A stretch of DNA of 64,000 nucleotides from Mobula hypostoma (GCF_963921235.1 NC_086097.1:21640001-21704000), one strand, 5' to 3'; positions 3,108 to 56,632 are shown, numbered from the stretch's first letter. Numbers and translations are program-made. The notes: generated by a model from the sequence alone, not told the origin.

Positions 3108-3328
3108 AAATTCTCAACACAGATACAAGAGATTCTGCAGGTGCTGGAAATGCAGAGCAACACACACAAAATGCTGGAGGAACTCAGCATCTAGGGAAAT
3201 GAATAAACAGTCAACGTTTCATATCAAGACCCATCGCCAGGACTGAAAAGGAAGGGGGAAGTTGCTCTGGCATCTTCCCACTTCCTTTCCAGTCCTGATG
3301 AAAGGTCTCAGCCCAAATTCTCAACACA
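3108..3328. mobile_element. Penelope-like mini fold-back insertion with 14-bp TSD
   Basis: AAATTCTCAACACA at 3108-3121 and 3315-3328 flanks an inverted element 3' end plus a forward piece containing agtcCTGATGAaaggtctcagccc. Confidence 0.8.
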
Positions 3329-4357
3329 TCCTTTTCTGACTTTGGCTTGGTTCAAGACAACCAATGTCATTCTGTTTCTCCTCCACTGTCACAAGGGTGC
3401 AGGCTAATTGTAGCAGGTCTCATACAATAGGGCATCTATGAATAGATGCAATCTCTGTTTTTCAAAAAGGGTCTTAAAATTAAACCATGGGCGTTTATTC
3501 CCTTCAGCGTCACTGACACAGCGGTAGACTCCGCTTCTGTCCTCTTGTCCATCATCTCTCATTGTCAATGTCAGCAGGTGCAGAGATAATGTTCTTAAGG
3601 CAGTTTTGTGAGATGGGCAACGATTTGTGTTAGAGAGACTTTAATGCCAAGAAAATAGTAACAGAAATGCATAGGATGCATACAATATGCATACAGCATA
3701 GGAAGACATACAGTATGCTTGGCTTGATTGGTCAGGGCTCTGGGAAAGTGAGTTGGAAATTTACATTGCAGCTGTACAAAACATTTATTTTAAGATCTTA
3801 AGAACATAAGATTCAGCCCATTGAGTCTGCTCCACCATTTGATCCTGACTGATTTTTTCCTCTCTTGATTCCATTCTCCTGCCTTCTCCCTGTAACCATT
3901 TTTTGCCCTAACTAAACACAGACCTATCAACCTCTGTTTTAACTATGCACAATGACTTGGCCTCCACAGTCATCTGTGGTAGTGAATTCCCCAGATTCAG
4001 CTCTGGAAAAAGTATTCGCTCCTCATCTCTATTCTAAAGGGACGTCATTCTATTCTAAGGCTGTGCTAGGTGGTGAAGACTGAGAGTTTGTGAGATGTTG
4101 TCGAAGAGGCCTTGGAGAGTCTTAGCAATGCATTTTTAGATGGCAGACACAGCAGTCATGAGTCAAAGTCTTGGAACTCACTGTCAACTGCACTGCACAA
4201 GCAATTTCAACACAGGGACTGAATAGTGATAGGAGTGACTGAATGCTCACGTTGAAAGGCTAAGGGACATAGTACTGGAAGCAGGACACAAACAAAGCCG
4301 CCTCCTCCCACCTTCCCAATCAGGAGGCAACAGCGTTTGTATTGTTGGTATGCTAGA

Positions 4358-4713
4358 ATCATCATTATTATGTACCCTGTCTTGTATGACATGGGTGATC
4401 ATGGTCTATCCATGACCATAATTGTTCTTGGCAAATTTTTCCACAGAAATGGTTTGCCATCGCCTTCTTCTGGACAGTGTCTTCAGAAGACGGTGACCCC
4501 AGCATTTATCAATACTCTTCAGAGACTGTTGCCTGGCATCAGTGGTCACATAACCAGGACTTGTGATAAGCACCAACTGCTCCCATGGCATCACGTGACC
4601 CGACTGGGGGCAAAGCAAGTGCTACACCTTCCCCGAGGGTGACCTGCAGGCTAGTGGAGGGAAGGAGCGCCTTGCACTTCCTTTGGTAGAGGCGTATCAC
4701 CATCCCGCCACCC
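4358..4713 (-). mobile_element. RTE-related SINE-like element
   Basis: Minus strand has GAAGGCGATGGCAAACCATTTC (RTE/BovB-type motif) and ends in a short ATAATAATGATGAT tail. Confidence 0.55.
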
Positions 4714-5150
4714 AAGTTAGATTCATCCAACATTGAAACCAGCCCTTCAGCCCAATATGGCCATGCTGATTCTCTGCGCCAGCCCCATTTACCAGCAATT
4801 GATCTGTAGCCTTTTTTACACAAGAGTCAGATTCAAATTTATTTATCACATGTACATTGATACATACAGTTTTAGGGTACATATAGTATTATAAGTAAAT
4901 AAATAATGCTGAGACCATGAGTCGTGTAGTCCTTGAAAGGTGGACTGATTTCCAAGGACCATGGTCTTGGTATAATTTATTCACTTAGTTAATTATTATT
5001 ATTAGATTTATTTTGTACGTTTGTATTTATACATTTTGTCTTCTTTTGCACACTTATCAATCTTGGTTTCTGTATAGATTTTCATTGCTTATATTCTATT
5101 TTTTGTTCTACTGTGAATGCCTGCAAGTAACTGAATCTCAGAGTATTATA

Positions 5151-5220
5151 TGGTGGTATGTGGTAGTAAATGGTAGTATTCGGTGGTATGTGGTAGTATT
5201 TGGTAGTATATGGTGACATA
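5151..5220 (+). repeat. 10-bp tandem repeat (about 7 units, TGGTAGTATN-like) inside a LINE 3' UTR
   Basis: tggtggtatg tggtagtaaa tggtagtatt cggtggtatg tggtagtatt tggtagtata tggtgacata. Confidence 0.85.
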
Positions 5221-53425: not shown

Positions 53426-53804
53426 GCCTCCCGCTACAACACTGTCCCTCTCCAACAATGGCCTCTCTGCTTACACCTTTCCTCTATTTATTGGCTCAAA
53501 TAATACTAACTCCCGACAAGACTAAACCTTTTCAAATGGCTCTCGTCTTGCAACGATATCTCTCCCTCACTCGCTACTTCAAATTATGACTCATTCCCAA
53601 TGAGACTTGTTCTTCAAAATTCAAAGTTCAAAGTAAGTTTTTTTATTCAAGTGCATACATGTCACCGTATACAACCTTGAGATTTCTTTTCTTGTGGGAA
53701 ATCTCACTAAATACAAGAAATGCAATAGAATCAATAAAAGACTGCGCCCACCAGGACAGACAACAAGCAATGTGCAAAACAAAAACAACAAACTATAGTC
53801 ATAG

Positions 53805-54945
53805 TCACAGTCATAGTCATACTTTATTGATCCTGGGGGAAATTGGATTTTTGTTACAATTGCTCCGTAAATAATAAATAGTAATAAAACCATAAATAGT
53901 TAAATAGTAATATGTAAATTATACCCGGACATAAGTCCAGGACCAGCCTATTGGCTCAGGGTGTCTGACCCTCCAAGGGAGGAGTTGTAAAGTTCGATGG
54001 CCACAGGCAGGAATGACTTCCTGTGATGCTCTGTGTTGCATCTCGGTGGAATGAGTCTCTGGCTGAATGTACTCCTGTGCCCAACCAGTACATTATGTAG
54101 TAGATGGGAGACATTGTCCAAGATGGCATGCAACTTGGACAGCATCCTCTTTTCAGACACCACCGTCAGAGAGTCCAGTTCCATCCCCACAACATCACTG
54201 GCCTTATGAATGAGTTTGTTGACTCTATTGGTGTCTGCTACCCTCAGCCTGCTGCCCCAGCACACAACAGCAAACATGATTGCACTGGCCACCACAGACT
54301 CGTAGAACATCCTCCGCGTTGTCCGGCAGATGTTAAAGGACCTCAGTCTCCTCAGGAAATAGATACGGCTCTGACCCTTCTTGTAGACAGCCTCAGTGTT
54401 CTTTGACCAGTCCAGTTTATTGTCAATTCGTATCCCCAGGTATTTGTAATCCTCCACCCGGTCCACCCTGACCCCCTGGATGGAAACAGGGGTCACCGGT
54501 ACCTTAGCTCTCCTCAGGTCTACCACCAGCTCCTTAGTCTTTTTCACATTACGCTGCAGATAATTCTGCTCACACCATGTGACAAAGTTTCCTACTGTAG
54601 CCCTGTACTCAGCCTCATCTCCCTTGCTGATGCATCCAACTATGGCAGAGTCATCAGAAAACTTCTGAAGATGACAAGACTCTGTGCAGTAGTTGAAGTC
54701 CGAGGTGTAAATGGTGAAGAGAAAGGGAGACAAGACAGTCCCCTATGGAGCCCCAGTGCTGCTGATCATTCTGTCGGACACACACTGTTGCAAGCACACG
54801 TACTGTGGTCTGCCAGTCAGGTAATCAAGAATCCATGACACCAGGGAAGCATCCACCTGCATCGCTGTCAGCTTCTCCCCCAGCAGAGCAGGGCGGATGG
54901 TGTTGAACGCACTGGAGAAGTCAAAAAACATGACCCTCACAGTGC
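53805..54945 (-). mobile_element. Young Rex1/Babar-like LINE 3' part, nested in an older LINE 3' end (53620-55440)
   Basis: FFDFSSAFNTI...GAP, then a 261-aa frame SPFLFTIYTSDF...KFSDDSAIVG...YKYLGIRIDNKLDW; (GACTAT)n tail. Confidence 0.92.
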
Positions 54946-56375
54946 TGTGCAAATATGAGAAAAAAGAAATAATAATAATAATTATTATTATTATAATAAA
55001 TAAGCAATAGATATTGAGAACATGAAATGAATAGTCCTAGAAAGTGAGTCCAGTTTAGTGGGAACATTTCAACGATGGGGCAAGTGCAGCTGAGTGAAGT
55101 TACCCCTTTGCTTCAAGAGCCTGATGGCTGCGGGGTAATAACTGTTCCTGAACCTGGTGGTGTGAGTCCTGAGGCTCCTGTACCTTGTTCCTGATAATAG
55201 CAGCGAGAAGAGAAGAGAGCATGTCTTATATGGTGGGAGTCATTGATGATGGCTGCTGCTTGCCTGCAACAGTGTTCCATGTAGATGTGCTCAATGGTGT
55301 GGAGTGTTTTACCCATGATGGACTGGGCCGTATCCACCACTTTTTGTAGGCTTTTACATACAATGGCACTGGCGTTCCATACCAGTAAATATACTCCACC
55401 ACACATCTATAGAACTTTGTCAAACCTTTAGATGACAAAATCGTCACGAACTTCTACCAAAGTAGAGTTCTTTTACTTGTCTGCCACCGTGCTCATAGGG
55501 AGCATGAAGTTCCTATGTGCACAGTGGGGGATTTCTGAGAATAGCAGACCCCCCAGGGATTTGAGTGTTTTCCAGATAACAGTAATCATATTTTAATTTG
55601 AAATTATTAATAGTTTTGTGAACACCTGGGTATTGTATGGACTTTTGTGAGTGAATAAACTTGTAGTTTTGTAACAAAATATGTCAACATCGGAAGAGGC
55701 AATGGTCTGGATGGTAGGGGCTTAGATGATGGAGAAGAGCTCGCAATTCTGTACTGTAAAGGTTTTCTTAAAAAGAAAAGACTATTTTGGTATGCTAAAG
55801 GTTTCAGTTCAAATCTCCTTTAAAATCAGTGATTGTGTTCTTAAACAGAAGATCATCTAAGGTTATTTACCTATCAAATAGATTCTATTGACACTGGTTT
55901 ATGTGGAGTTTTAAGGATTATCATTGAACCTTGACAAAAGTTTATTAATCTGCAGAGATTAATCTCATTGTTTGAATGTCTTATCATTTTATCATTACAT
56001 GTTTGTTTTCCCTGCTGAACAGTGTTGGCATCACCCACTTCTGTCGATAATGTGAATACGAGCATATAATGCCTTTGCTACTCAGTTTCTTTATTCATTT
56101 ATGGGATCAGGATGTTACTTGCCAGCCTGGTGTTTAATGTATGCCCACCTATCCTTGCAGTGAAGTCAGCTTTGTTGTCGTAAGCACCTGTATAGATGTG
56201 TACAGGTACAAAGATAAACTTGCAGCAGCATCACAGGAACATAACATCACAGAAGTAGCATTCACACAAAAAGCATTAATTAAACATAAATTGTACACAG
56301 TTTTTGCAAGAAAAAACACAATTAGAACAAAAAGTACCTAGTCCATTTTAATGCAAAGTGATCAAAGTGGCCATA

Positions 56376-56632
56376 GTGTTGCTAAGCACAAGAGAAACTT
56401 CAGATGCTGGAAATCCAGAGTAACACACACAAAATGGTGGCGAAACACTGCCTACCCTGCTAAAACTTATATTCCTTCCCCTCCCCCATCTCCCATCTTC
56501 TTGTTCTGGCTTCTTCCTCCTTCCTTACCAATCCTGATAAAGGGTCTCGGCCTGAAACGTCAGCTGTTTATTCCTCTCCATTGATGCTGCCTGACCTGCT
56601 GTGTTCCTCCAGCATTTTGATGGTGTTGCTAA
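56376..56632. mobile_element. Penelope-like fold-back insertion with 10-bp TSD
   Basis: GTGTTGCTAA at 56376-56385 and 56623-56632; forward arm has CTGATAA-AGGGTCTCGGCCT-GAAA-CGTC (G8-to-A core change). Confidence 0.8.

What the first reader, a model, noticed from the sequence alone, without database searches (positions are those of the whole stretch)
3108..56632. Dispersed family of minimal, dimer-type hammerhead ribozymes on Penelope-like 3' ends
Seen: about ten copies of one motif (3208-3245 -, 3290-3317 +, 8573-8608 -, 9195-9230 +, near 20010-20075 both strands, 25031-25066 -, 36572-36609 -, 45263-45300 -, 47619-47655 +, 56529-56566 +). They give the consensus CAGUC-CUGAnGA-A-GGGU-CUCG-GCCC-GAAA-CGUC^GACUG: stem I (CAGUC/GACUG), the CUGANGA/GAAA core, a 4-bp stem II, a GUC cleavage triplet and a loopless palindromic stem III (ACGU). 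Known: Penelope-like retroelements carry minimal type-I hammerheads thought to act as dimers. Inference: this genome holds a high-copy ribozyme-bearing non-autonomous family that a repeat scan would call an anonymous SINE. No single copy here is perfect; 9195 and 25031 keep the whole core.
Basis: partly seen in the sequence, partly recalled or inferred. Interest (0 to 1): 0.8.

Follow-up and report, generated by a model that had tools for sequence, protein, structure and literature searches.

The report
Hammerhead motifs on Penelope retroelement tails
The repeated motif is real: it is the small hammerhead-ribozyme signature in the tail end of a very abundant Penelope-like jumping gene, a kind already described in other animals, and every copy in this window is a decayed fragment.

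Summary
Observation confirmed. A covariance model built from 100 genome copies finds 12 copies in the window at E<=0.0013. Fifty shuffles gave no matches. Only 9194 and 25030 keep the whole catalytic core, and no window copy is fully intact.

The copies are 3'-terminal modules of an autonomous Penelope-like element (PLE). [quoted passage not shown] It shows target-site duplications, a 44-nt terminal repeat, variable 5' truncation and head-to-head inverted pairs.

The 100-copy consensus keeps CUGANGA, GAAA, a loopless ACGU helix III, GUC and the extra base after A9. That is the minimal hammerhead of Cervera & de la Pena 2014.

Limits: no Rfam hit, no covariation, G10.1-U11.1 in many copies, unfavourable predicted dimer energy, no RNA evidence. 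Cleavage is inferred, not shown.

The 'SINE-like non-autonomous family' is only partly right. Most copies are truncated PLE ends, but a discrete ~136-bp class starts at the motif's second base.

Verdict: new member of a known kind; interest is modest.

The parts
25030..25067 (-). Hammerhead-motif copy with the core intact (CUGACGA, GAAA, ACGU, GUC). Helix I has lost the 1.1-2.1 pair (GUCAGCUG variant).
   Evidence: R1 62.8 bits, E 2.4e-18; core check
24931..25066 (-). Discrete 136-bp short unit, running from the motif's second base to the element's 3' end. It is flanked by a 13-bp target-site duplication (25067-25079 and 24918-24930).
   Evidence: Sequence read; TSD search; matches reference tail positions 3170-3308
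9194..9231 (+). Hammerhead-motif copy with the core intact; the 1.1 base is mutated (GUCCACUG).
   Evidence: R1 62.8 bits
8572..8609 (-). Hammerhead-motif copy. The helix III palindrome is broken (ACCU) and the G10.1-C11.1 form is kept.
   Evidence: R1 61.7 bits
8474..9287 (.). Head-to-head inverted pair of two PLE 3' UTRs (8474-8892 minus, 8903-9287 plus). Both are truncated within 11 nt of each other just after the ORF stop, and they lie 10 bp apart.
   Evidence: blastn against a long natural copy: reference 2889-3304 and 2878-3262, 87-89% identity. The miRNA-like sub-threshold Rfam hits here are its hairpin.
56529..56566 (+). Hammerhead-motif copy of the older subfamily B; core broken (CUGAUAA).
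   Evidence: R1 57.9 bits
56479..56633 (+). Subfamily-B PLE tail fragment holding the 56529 motif. An inverted tail-only fragment lies just upstream at 56388-56446.
   Evidence: blastn with natural copies
36572..36609 (-). Hammerhead-motif copy; core broken (CUAAUGG, ACAU).
   Evidence: R1 54.3 bits; element extent 36521-36804
45263..45300 (-). Hammerhead-motif copy; ACGU and GUC decayed at CpG sites (ACAUUG).
   Evidence: R1 47.7 bits
45108..45671 (-). Longest window copy. It holds the last ~30 codons of the PLE ORF (45582-45671), the 3' UTR and the motif. A partial second tail follows in direct order (45108-45195), which includes the motif fragment at 45176-45192.
   Evidence: tblastn aa 901-930 and blastn; R1 fragment E 0.016
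20007..20040 (-). Decayed motif copy with a deletion in the core; the left arm of a head-to-head pair with a 2-nt gap.
   Evidence: R1 29.8 bits
20043..20079 (+). Decayed motif copy; the right arm of the same head-to-head pair. Its tail extends to 20176.
   Evidence: R1 18.6 bits, E 0.0013
3208..3245 (-). Decayed motif copy (8 of 38 positions changed); the left arm of a head-to-head pair.
   Evidence: R1 29.4 bits
3290..3327 (+). Decayed motif copy that loses similarity after helix II; the right arm of the pair, 44 nt from its partner.
   Evidence: R1 29.1 bits
47617..47654 (+). Decayed motif copy; GAAA has become UAAA. Its tail extends to 47746.
   Evidence: R1 26.3 bits
42203..42240 (+).
   Evidence: R1 25.5 bits, E 6.7e-06
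19493..19601 (+). Tail-only fragment of the same 3' module, with no hammerhead core.
   Evidence: blastn 91% to a natural subfamily-B copy, positions 478-586

Best explanation
The motif copies are dead genomic copies of the 3'-terminal module of a very abundant autonomous Penelope-like retroelement (PLE). [quoted passage not shown] About 300 nt after the stop codon, and about 136-146 nt before the element's 3' end, lies a 38-nt minimal type-I hammerhead: a 5-bp open helix I, CUGANGA, one extra A, a 4-bp helix II with a CUCG loop, GAAA, a loopless palindromic ACGU in place of helix III, and a GUC cleavage triplet.

Shown here: the motif, its position in the element, the element's PLE anatomy, and the decay of the window copies.

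Inferred from the published behaviour of such motifs: in a transcript or RNA pair with two sense copies, the two motifs swap strands into a double hammerhead. Helix III (ACGU with ACGU) and helix I form in trans, and each copy cuts after GUC. Cleavage is probably slow and helped by protein. It would trim longer-than-unit PLE transcripts.

Insertion by target-primed reverse transcription then scatters 5'-truncated tails, head-to-head inverted pairs and a short 136-bp unit through the genome. That is what this window contains. None of the window copies is expected to cleave.
For: Motif:
- The consensus of 100 genome copies is UAGUC-CUGACGA-A-GGGU-CUCG-GCCU-GAAA-CGUC-GACUG. The extra A is invariant, and 87.7% of stem cells are paired against 14-46% when the partners are slid.
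- 12 window hits at E<=0.0013 and 0 matches in 50 shuffles.

Link to a PLE:
- Walking upstream from the tails reaches ORFs ending in a GIY-YIG domain (PF01541, E 7e-4) preceded by RT (PF00078, E 4.9e-5).
- In the genome, 93 scored ORF matches were drawn from 241,293 first-look candidates. 91 of the 93 have no stop in the matched part, and open frames reach 1092 aa.
- In every ORF-bearing locus examined, the motif lies about 300 nt after the stop on the same strand: 4 of 8 by strict regex, and the remaining loci by R1.
- One long copy has a 1092-aa open frame, a 44-nt exact terminal direct repeat and a 7-12-bp target-site duplication.
- 1170 homologues at E<=1e-10 carry precomputed RVT_1 and, in some, GIY-YIG domains. 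The closest named ones are 72% and 68% identical proteins of a shark; others come from coral, sea urchin and molluscs.
- 5' truncation points vary from 4 to 540 nt among 20 copies.
- 33 of 56 neighbouring pairs are head-to-head, where 25% would be expected (p 7e-8).

Agreement with print:
- Cervera & de la Pena 2014 (PMC4209133, text parts 1-2 read) describe minimal hammerheads without helix III/loop 3, with an extra base between positions 9 and 10.1 and palindromic 15.2-16.2. They lie in PLE terminal repeats, often as pairs on opposite strands, and occur in fish, coelacanth and frog.
- Craig et al. 2021 (PMC8557442, passages) describe 5' truncation, inverted 5'-truncated partners and a 30-40-bp tail.

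Conservation: between two PLE subfamilies, the motif (37 of 38 positions) and the ~100-nt tail (~90%) are conserved, while the upstream UTR is only 55-70% identical.
Against: - No Rfam hammerhead family matches, either at gathering score or at E<=10 over the window. Even a perfect copy searched within 101 nt gives no match.
- There is no covariation among the copies: every measure equals its shuffled control (for example 2 pairs with double changes vs 2.2 expected). The structure therefore rests on resemblance to the hammerhead consensus only.
- The usually conserved G10.1-C11.1 pair is G-U in 45 of 94 distinct rows, and in the copies next to open ORFs.
- Nearest-neighbour energies do not favour the active fold. 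The double hammerhead scores -14.7 kcal/mol, against -33.5 for an extended duplex and -12.6 per monomer for a hairpin that pairs GACG of the core with CGUC. Such models ignore tertiary contacts.
- Both Pfam hits are below the curated cut-offs.
- In print, these motifs cleave poorly in vitro even as dimers. The Anolis PLE hammerhead needed protein, was not needed for insertion in vitro, and left no RNA-seq ends at its cut site (PMC11167929, passages). Naiad PLEs thrive without hammerheads.
Confidence: 0.85

Rival explanations
1. A dedicated non-autonomous, SINE-like lineage. A short RNA of about 136 nt, starting at the hammerhead's second base and ending at the PLE tail, is made from its own start site. 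The PLE enzyme copies it in trans, so many of the short copies are full-length copies of that RNA and not truncated PLEs.
For: - A discrete 5' end exists. 4 of 20 tails end within 10 nt of the motif's 5' edge. 22 of 100 copies with a recognisable 5' part have unrelated DNA directly upstream.
- Target-site duplications of 10-16 bp flank such units in 5 of 17 cases examined: window 25030, L010, L018, L008 and L053. The window copy at 24931-25066 has a 13-bp duplication.
- The base before the unit is G in 11 of 22 such copies, against 1 of 78 copies that continue upstream (p 5e-8). In L010 and L008 this G lies outside the duplication, as would fit a copied cap.
- The bases around the start (YYAGUCC) fit the initiator consensus YYANWYY, which I recall and did not test.
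Against: - 92 of 140 unique copies continue upstream into PLE UTR.
- In the window copy, and in the long copy, the G is part of the target duplication. A target preference of the endonuclease therefore explains at least some of the G's.
- 12 of the 17 examined units gave no duplication, or only one of 6-7 bp.
- There is no tRNA-like head.
- No subfamily-specific diagnostic changes separating short from long copies were looked for.
- Only 11 of 56 neighbouring pairs are direct repeats, and no tandem arrays were seen.
Confidence: 0.25
2. The block is conserved for another reason than self-cleavage. It could be a folded hairpin or promoter-proximal element of the PLE tail, used for binding of the reverse transcriptase or for transcription start, with the hammerhead-like core now vestigial in this lineage.
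For: - The predicted monomer ground state is a 13-bp interrupted hairpin that buries the core.
- The motif is conserved together with the whole ~100-nt tail, not on its own.
- The G10.1-U11.1 change is present in copies beside open ORFs.
- A discrete 5' end lies exactly at the motif's edge.
- In print, the Anolis PLE inserts without cleavage and shows no cut-site reads, and Naiads lack hammerheads.
Against: - All 11 fixed core bases, the extra base after A9, the ACGU palindrome and GUC are kept in both subfamily consensuses. A plain hairpin would not require that.
- The same architecture recurs in PLEs of distant animals.
- The Anolis motif does cleave when its protein is present, and core mutants abolish this.
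Confidence: 0.25
3. Chance resemblance: a repeat that happens to contain hammerhead-like words.
For: There is no Rfam hit and no covariation.
Against: The full set of core boxes, their spacing, the extra base, the palindrome, the cleavage triplet and both stems sit in the consensus. They lie at the place in a PLE where such motifs are published. No matches were found in 50 shuffles.
Confidence: 0.01

Closest known systems
Minimal hammerheads (min-HHR) of metazoan Penelope-like elements (Cervera & de la Pena 2014, PMC4209133; Lunse, Weinberg & Breaker, RNA Biol, seen only as a reference in PMC6765202)
   Same: Type-I topology. No helix III loop, with palindromic 15.2-16.2. An unpaired base between A9 and 10.1. 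A short helix I of 5 bp. Location in the terminal repeat/3' end of an RT + GIY-YIG element. Mostly solitary truncated copies, with frequent pairs on opposite strands.
   Different: Helix II is 4 bp here, against 7-8 bp in the Schistosoma families described. Position 11.1 is U in about half of the copies, and in those beside open ORFs. Density is far higher than the published counts: 12 in 64 kb, which would extrapolate to some 10^5-10^6 motif relics, against about 4,000 in coelacanth and 9,000 in Xenopus by a strict descriptor. The methods are not comparable. No cleavage data for this family.
Poseidon element PAc of Anolis carolinensis (Frangieh et al. 2024, PMC11167929)
   Same: An EN+ vertebrate PLE with a hammerhead in the terminal repeat. 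There is a 'tail' repeat at the element's ends: here a 44-nt exact repeat in one long copy.
   Different: In PAc the ORF starts inside helix II of the hammerhead. Here the motif lies about 300 nt after the stop, and the ATG lies 26 nt after the 44-nt repeat. The linker C-x4-C-x2-C before GIY-YIG fits the Neptune-type linker named in PMC8557442, but the clade was not tested by a tree.
Non-LTR retrozymes of animals (Cervera & de la Pena 2020, PMC7229834, listing and abstract only; Li et al. 2026 preprint, Results read)
   Same: Non-autonomous hammerhead-bearing units related to PLE terminal repeats. The 136-bp short unit here could be of that kind.
   Different: Retrozymes are tandem arrays with canonical type-I hammerheads that give circular RNAs. 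Here no arrays were seen (11 direct pairs of 56 neighbours) and the motif lacks helix III.
Rfam Hammerhead_1 / HH9 / HH10 families
   Same: Same catalytic core boxes.
   Different: No match at any threshold tried. Those models expect a closed helix III.

Membership tests
Metazoan PLE minimal hammerhead (min-HHR) | Core boxes CUGANGA and GAAA with a U-H cleavage site | tested here: met
   Present in the consensus of 100 genome copies. Intact in 48 of 142 copies found by R1, and in 2 of 12 window copies.
Metazoan PLE minimal hammerhead (min-HHR) | Type-I layout: open helix I, hairpin helix II | tested here: met
   9 pairs, with 87.7% of 846 cells paired, against 14-46% when partners are slid. 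This follows from the consensus, not from covariation.
Metazoan PLE minimal hammerhead (min-HHR) | No helix III/loop 3; positions 15.1-16.1 form a palindrome (ACGU) | tested here: met
   GAAA-CGUC in the consensus. It decays mostly at its two CpG sites in old copies.
Metazoan PLE minimal hammerhead (min-HHR) | Extra unpaired base between A9 and 10.1 | tested here: met
   Column 13 is A in 100 of 100 copies.
Metazoan PLE minimal hammerhead (min-HHR) | Conserved G10.1-C11.1 pair | tested here: inconclusive
   G-C in 39, G-U in 45, A-U in 3 and unpaired in 7 of 94 distinct rows. Copies beside open ORFs have G-U. C-to-U here is also a CpG change.
Metazoan PLE minimal hammerhead (min-HHR) | Families with covariations and compensatory changes | tested here: not met
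   Observed values equal the shuffled controls (2 vs 2.2 pairs with double changes; score 0.180 vs 0.182). Only two close subfamilies were sampled.
Metazoan PLE minimal hammerhead (min-HHR) | Lies in the terminal repeat / 3' end of a PLE | tested here: met
   About 297-306 nt after the stop of RT + GIY-YIG ORFs, and 136-146 nt before the 3' end.
Metazoan PLE minimal hammerhead (min-HHR) | Self-cleavage as a dimer | not testable with these tools
   Energy evaluation only, and it does not favour the double hammerhead.
Penelope-like element, EN+ (canonical) | Single ORF with RT followed by a C-terminal GIY-YIG endonuclease | tested here: met
   RVT_1 at residues 447-609 (E 4.9e-5) and GIY-YIG at 859-932 (E 2.9e-3) of one 956-aa frame; both are below Pfam's curated cut-offs. 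Homologues have the same precomputed domains.
Penelope-like element, EN+ (canonical) | 5' truncation, inverted 5'-truncated partner, short terminal 'tail' repeat, target-site duplication | tested here: met
   Truncation points from 4 to 540 nt. 33 of 56 neighbouring pairs are head-to-head. A 44-nt exact terminal repeat and a 7-12-bp duplication in one long copy. Full pLTR tandems were not examined.
Neptune clade of PLEs | CX2-5CxxC linker before the endonuclease; placement in an RT tree | tested here: inconclusive
   C-x4-C-x2-C is seen 16-20 residues before GIY-YIG in the L041 frame. No tree was built.
Rfam hammerhead families (RF00163 and relatives) | Score at or above the gathering threshold | tested here: not met
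   No hammerhead hit at gathering score or at E<=10.
SINE | Pol III-type head (tRNA, 5S or 7SL derived) and a discrete full length | tested here: not met
   No tRNA-like sequence in the window. 92 of 140 copies run on into PLE UTR. A discrete 136-bp class exists but has no such head.
Non-LTR retrozyme | Tandem arrays of hammerhead units giving circular RNA | tested here: not met
   11 direct pairs of 56 neighbours, spaced 136-1225 nt, and no arrays in 325 kb. Circular RNA is not testable here.

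The most novel reading that the evidence does not exclude
The hammerhead begins exactly at a defined RNA 5' end. Many copies start at the motif's second base, directly after the target-site duplication. Palindromic head-to-head pairs are centred on the same point (6 of 33). 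The surrounding bases fit an initiator-like start (consensus recalled, not tested). If the terminal repeat fires transcription there, the ribozyme would be the first 33 nt of every PLE transcript, and cleavage would remove the cap-bearing leader. The 136-nt 'hammerhead plus tail' RNA would then itself be a mobilised unit, which could explain a motif load of the order of 10^5-10^6 relics in one vertebrate genome.
Probability: 0.3. Interest if true: 0.55.

Novelty: new member of a known kind. Interest (0 to 1): 0.3.

Why it matters
The finding shows that a tool-less reading correctly spotted a ribozyme signature that Rfam-based annotation misses entirely. Ordinary pipelines would leave hundreds of thousands of such relics in this genome unlabelled, or call them anonymous repeats.

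Biologically it adds a very PLE-rich vertebrate genome to the list of hosts of minimal hammerheads. The closest named protein relatives are from a shark. It also offers a large natural sample for three open questions: whether these motifs cut in vivo, what the G10.1-U11.1 variant does, and why 5' ends and palindrome centres pile up at the motif's edge. It does not reveal a new kind of RNA or element.

Tried and rejected
- Rfam, at gathering score and at E<=10, on the window and on a perfect copy: no hammerhead family. The miRNA and snoRNA names at 8805-9004 and 3226-3309 are far below their thresholds; they are the hairpins of the inverted PLE pairs.
- Covariation test on 100 copies: none. This is expected for neutrally decaying copies, so it counts neither for nor against.
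- Sequencing runs: no RNA holder listed. The four runs laid (X1, X5, X9, X19) are contigs of guessed kind, which cannot show RNA ends. They show only that the tail family occurs at very high depth in runs of four coded organisms, and table 6 lists no start or end pile-ups.
- Cap-derived extra G: not settled. The G before the short units is part of the target duplication in the window copy and in the long copy, but lies outside it in L010 and L008.
- A snap-back model for palindromes centred at the motif's edge: worked through by hand and not resolved.
One smaller stretch was granted, so the full-length anatomy rests on a single copy.
- Lunse et al. could not be read.
- Script slips: a wrong regex and a best-match regex that skipped hits. 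Both were replaced.
- Literature searches for this family in cartilaginous fish gave no paper on it. I saw listings only. Supplements of the 2014 paper and of the 2026 preprint, which may list species and motifs, were not seen.

Full report
**1. Observation**

I built a covariance model (R1) from 100 copies collected elsewhere in the same genome, using helix I (5 bp) and helix II (4 bp) as its structure.

- Over the window with filters off, R1 gives 17 matches at E<=1, and 12 of them have E<=0.0013. There is also a fragment at 45176-45192(-) with E 0.016.
- An ungapped scan found 11 window sites within 10 mismatches of a 38-nt motif, and none in 50 shuffled windows.
- The simple pattern CTGANGA..GAAAC gave 6 hits against 1.09 expected. 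4 of these 6 are family copies and 2 are unrelated.
- Only 9194 and 25030 keep all core bases. Both have lost the helix-I pair next to the cut site, so no window copy is intact.

**2. What the copies belong to**

The window lies in a 3.48-Gb assembly of 200 contigs.

- Tails like the one at 25030 occur in thousands of first-look candidates (2,981; 4,500 for the older subfamily).
- Aligned copies share a sharp 3' end about 135 nt after the motif starts. Their 5' ends differ, lying 4 to 540 nt upstream among 20 copies.
- Walking upstream reaches a long ORF. Its end matches GIY-YIG (PF01541, E 7e-4), and its middle matches reverse transcriptase (PF00078, E 4.9e-5 in a 956-aa frame). Both scores are below Pfam's curated cut-offs.
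- A search of the genome with 454 residues of this ORF scored 93 matches out of 241,293 first-look candidates. 91 of the 93 have no stop in the matched part, and open frames run from 454 to 1092 aa.
- In the eight loci fetched, the motif lies about 300 nt after the stop on the same strand: 4 of 8 by strict regex, and the remaining loci by R1.
- Homologues number 1170 at E<=1e-10. The closest named ones are two uncharacterized proteins of Chiloscyllium punctatum (72% and 68% identity). Others, at about 50%, come from coral, sea urchin and molluscs.
- RT followed by a C-terminal GIY-YIG in one ORF is the defining layout of endonuclease-bearing Penelope-like elements (as stated in PMC4209133).

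**3. Anatomy of one long copy (two adjoining fetched stretches)**

- A 1092-aa open frame, with the first Met at residue 77.
- The motif starts 297 nt after the stop, and the 3' end lies 146 nt after the motif start.
- The last 44 nt are repeated exactly just before the ATG, and a 7-12-bp target-site duplication flanks the whole unit.
- This matches the 'tail' signature and the other PLE habits described by Craig et al. 2021 (passages) and Frangieh et al. 2024 (passages).

**4. Arrangement of copies**

- In 325 kb of window plus fetched loci, R1 finds 142 copies. The loci were fetched because they hold an element, so this set is biased.
- Among neighbours no more than 1.5 kb apart, 33 of 56 pairs are head-to-head, 12 are tail-to-tail and 11 are direct. 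With random orientation 25% would be head-to-head (p 7e-8).
- The three window pairs (3208/3290, 8572/9194, 20007/20043) are all head-to-head.
- The pair at 8474-9287 has arms truncated within 11 nt of each other, just after the ORF stop.
- About 2.7 kb of the window, in 14 blocks, derives from this tail. The longest copy (45108-45671) reaches the last ~30 codons of the ORF.

**5. The motif as a hammerhead**

The consensus of the 100 copies is UAGUC CUGACGA A GGGU CUCG GCCU GAAA CGUC GACUG.

- It has both core boxes, the GUC triplet, and an invariant extra A after A9. There is no helix III loop: A15.1-C-G-U16.1 is a palindrome.
- These are the features that Cervera & de la Pena (2014) give for the minimal hammerheads of metazoan PLEs. 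Their description includes pairs on opposite strands and occurrence in fish, coelacanth and frog.
- In a double hammerhead, helix III and helix I must both form between the two molecules. That is 14 intermolecular pairs for two of these motifs (my reading of the topology; structure written out).

**6. Evidence that tempers the ribozyme reading**

- Rfam reports no hammerhead family even for a perfect copy.
- The copies show no compensatory changes. Dead copies are not expected to.
- Position 11.1 is U in 45 of 94 distinct rows, and in the copies next to open ORFs.
- Predicted energies favour a monomer hairpin that pairs GACG of the core with CGUC (-12.6 kcal/mol), or an extended duplex (-33.5), over the double hammerhead (-14.7).
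- In print, such motifs cut weakly in vitro. The Anolis PLE motif needs its protein, is dispensable for insertion in vitro, and leaves no RNA-seq ends. Hammerhead-less Naiads still proliferate.
- I obtained no RNA evidence. No RNA holder was listed, and the runs laid are contigs.

**7. Subfamilies**

- A younger subfamily (helix I starting with U, N7 = C) and an older one (helix I starting with C, N7 = U, 82-87% identity among copies) both continue upstream into the end of a PLE ORF.
- Between them the motif is 37 of 38 identical and the 100-nt tail is about 90% identical. The ~300-nt pyrimidine-rich UTR upstream is only 55-70% identical.
- The motif is therefore conserved as part of the whole 3' module, not alone.

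**8. The 'SINE' inference**

- 92 of 140 unique copies run on into PLE UTR, and there is no tRNA-like head. The family is therefore not an independent SINE.
- There is nevertheless a discrete short class. Copies start at the motif's second base with unrelated DNA upstream (22 of 100 with a recognisable 5' part). In 5 of 17 examined cases, duplications of 10-16 bp flank a unit of about 136 bp. The window copy at 24931-25066 has a 13-bp duplication.
- The base before these units is G in 11 of 22, against 1 of 78 in copies that continue upstream (p 5e-8).
- In the window copy, and in the long copy, the G belongs to the target duplication. In L010 and L008 it does not. Both a target preference and a copied cap remain possible.
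- Six of the 33 head-to-head pairs, two of them duplicates of one locus, are palindromes centred at the same edge, with gaps of -8 to +2 nt.
- I cannot explain this pile-up.

**9. Comparison and verdict**

This is a member of the published class of PLE minimal hammerheads. The family and host were not described in the papers I could search (the 2026 preprint sampled one cartilaginous fish).

The differences are:
- a 4-bp helix II;
- the frequent G10.1-U11.1;
- a very high density, 12 per 64 kb, which would be about 6.5x10^5 relics if the window is typical (a rough extrapolation from one window);
- 5' ends clustered at the motif's edge.

Earlier notes of this scan on other genomes reached the same classification for similar motifs (not checked here). 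Novelty: new member of a known kind. Interest is modest.

Noticed in passing
window 8805-9004 and 3226-3309: Sub-threshold Rfam 'miRNA/snoRNA' matches (best 44 bits against gathering scores of 64-100) fall on the centres of head-to-head PLE tail pairs. They are long inverted-repeat hairpins, not RNA genes.
   Followed up: yes
L026:1571-1638, L029:1470-1537, L019:1460-1531, L005:1571-1647, window 20007-20079: Perfect or near-perfect palindromes whose centre lies at the 5' edge of the hammerhead motif (gap -8 to +2 nt between the two motif copies). This is 6 of 33 head-to-head pairs, and L012 and L026 are duplicates of one locus. No mechanism worked out.
   Followed up: partly
window 24918-25079; L010, L018, L008, L053: Short units of about 136 bp start at the motif's second base and are flanked by 10-16-bp target-site duplications. 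G precedes the unit in 11 of 22 such copies, against 1 of 78 copies that continue upstream.
   Followed up: partly
L049 + L084 (one contig stretch): A long PLE copy with a 1092-aa open frame has its last 44 nt repeated exactly 26 nt before the ATG, and is flanked by a 7-12-bp duplication. This is the PLE 'tail' signature. Only this one long copy was examined.
   Followed up: partly
window 13319-13895, 17156-17676, 56642-57166: Another repeat family (76-91% identity over about 520-590 bp) starts right after the 56529 tail copy. Its nature is unknown.
   Followed up: no
L045:273-1955 (+), L043:6768-7643 (-): Open frames that look to me like LINE-type reverse transcriptases, unrelated to the PLE ORF, lie beside PLE copies. 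No domain search was run on them.
   Followed up: no
tail downstream of the motif, e.g. window 24931-25029 (-): The conserved ~100-nt tail holds complementary words (AGAUGCUG ... CAGCAUCU, and UGCUG ... CAGCA) that could form a folded 3' domain. This might be the site where the reverse transcriptase starts. Not folded or tested.
   Followed up: no
L069:2186-2223, L055:2640-2677: A third motif variant has helix-II loop UCCG and helix-I 3' strand GACCG. Only two copies were seen; this may be another PLE subfamily.
   Followed up: no
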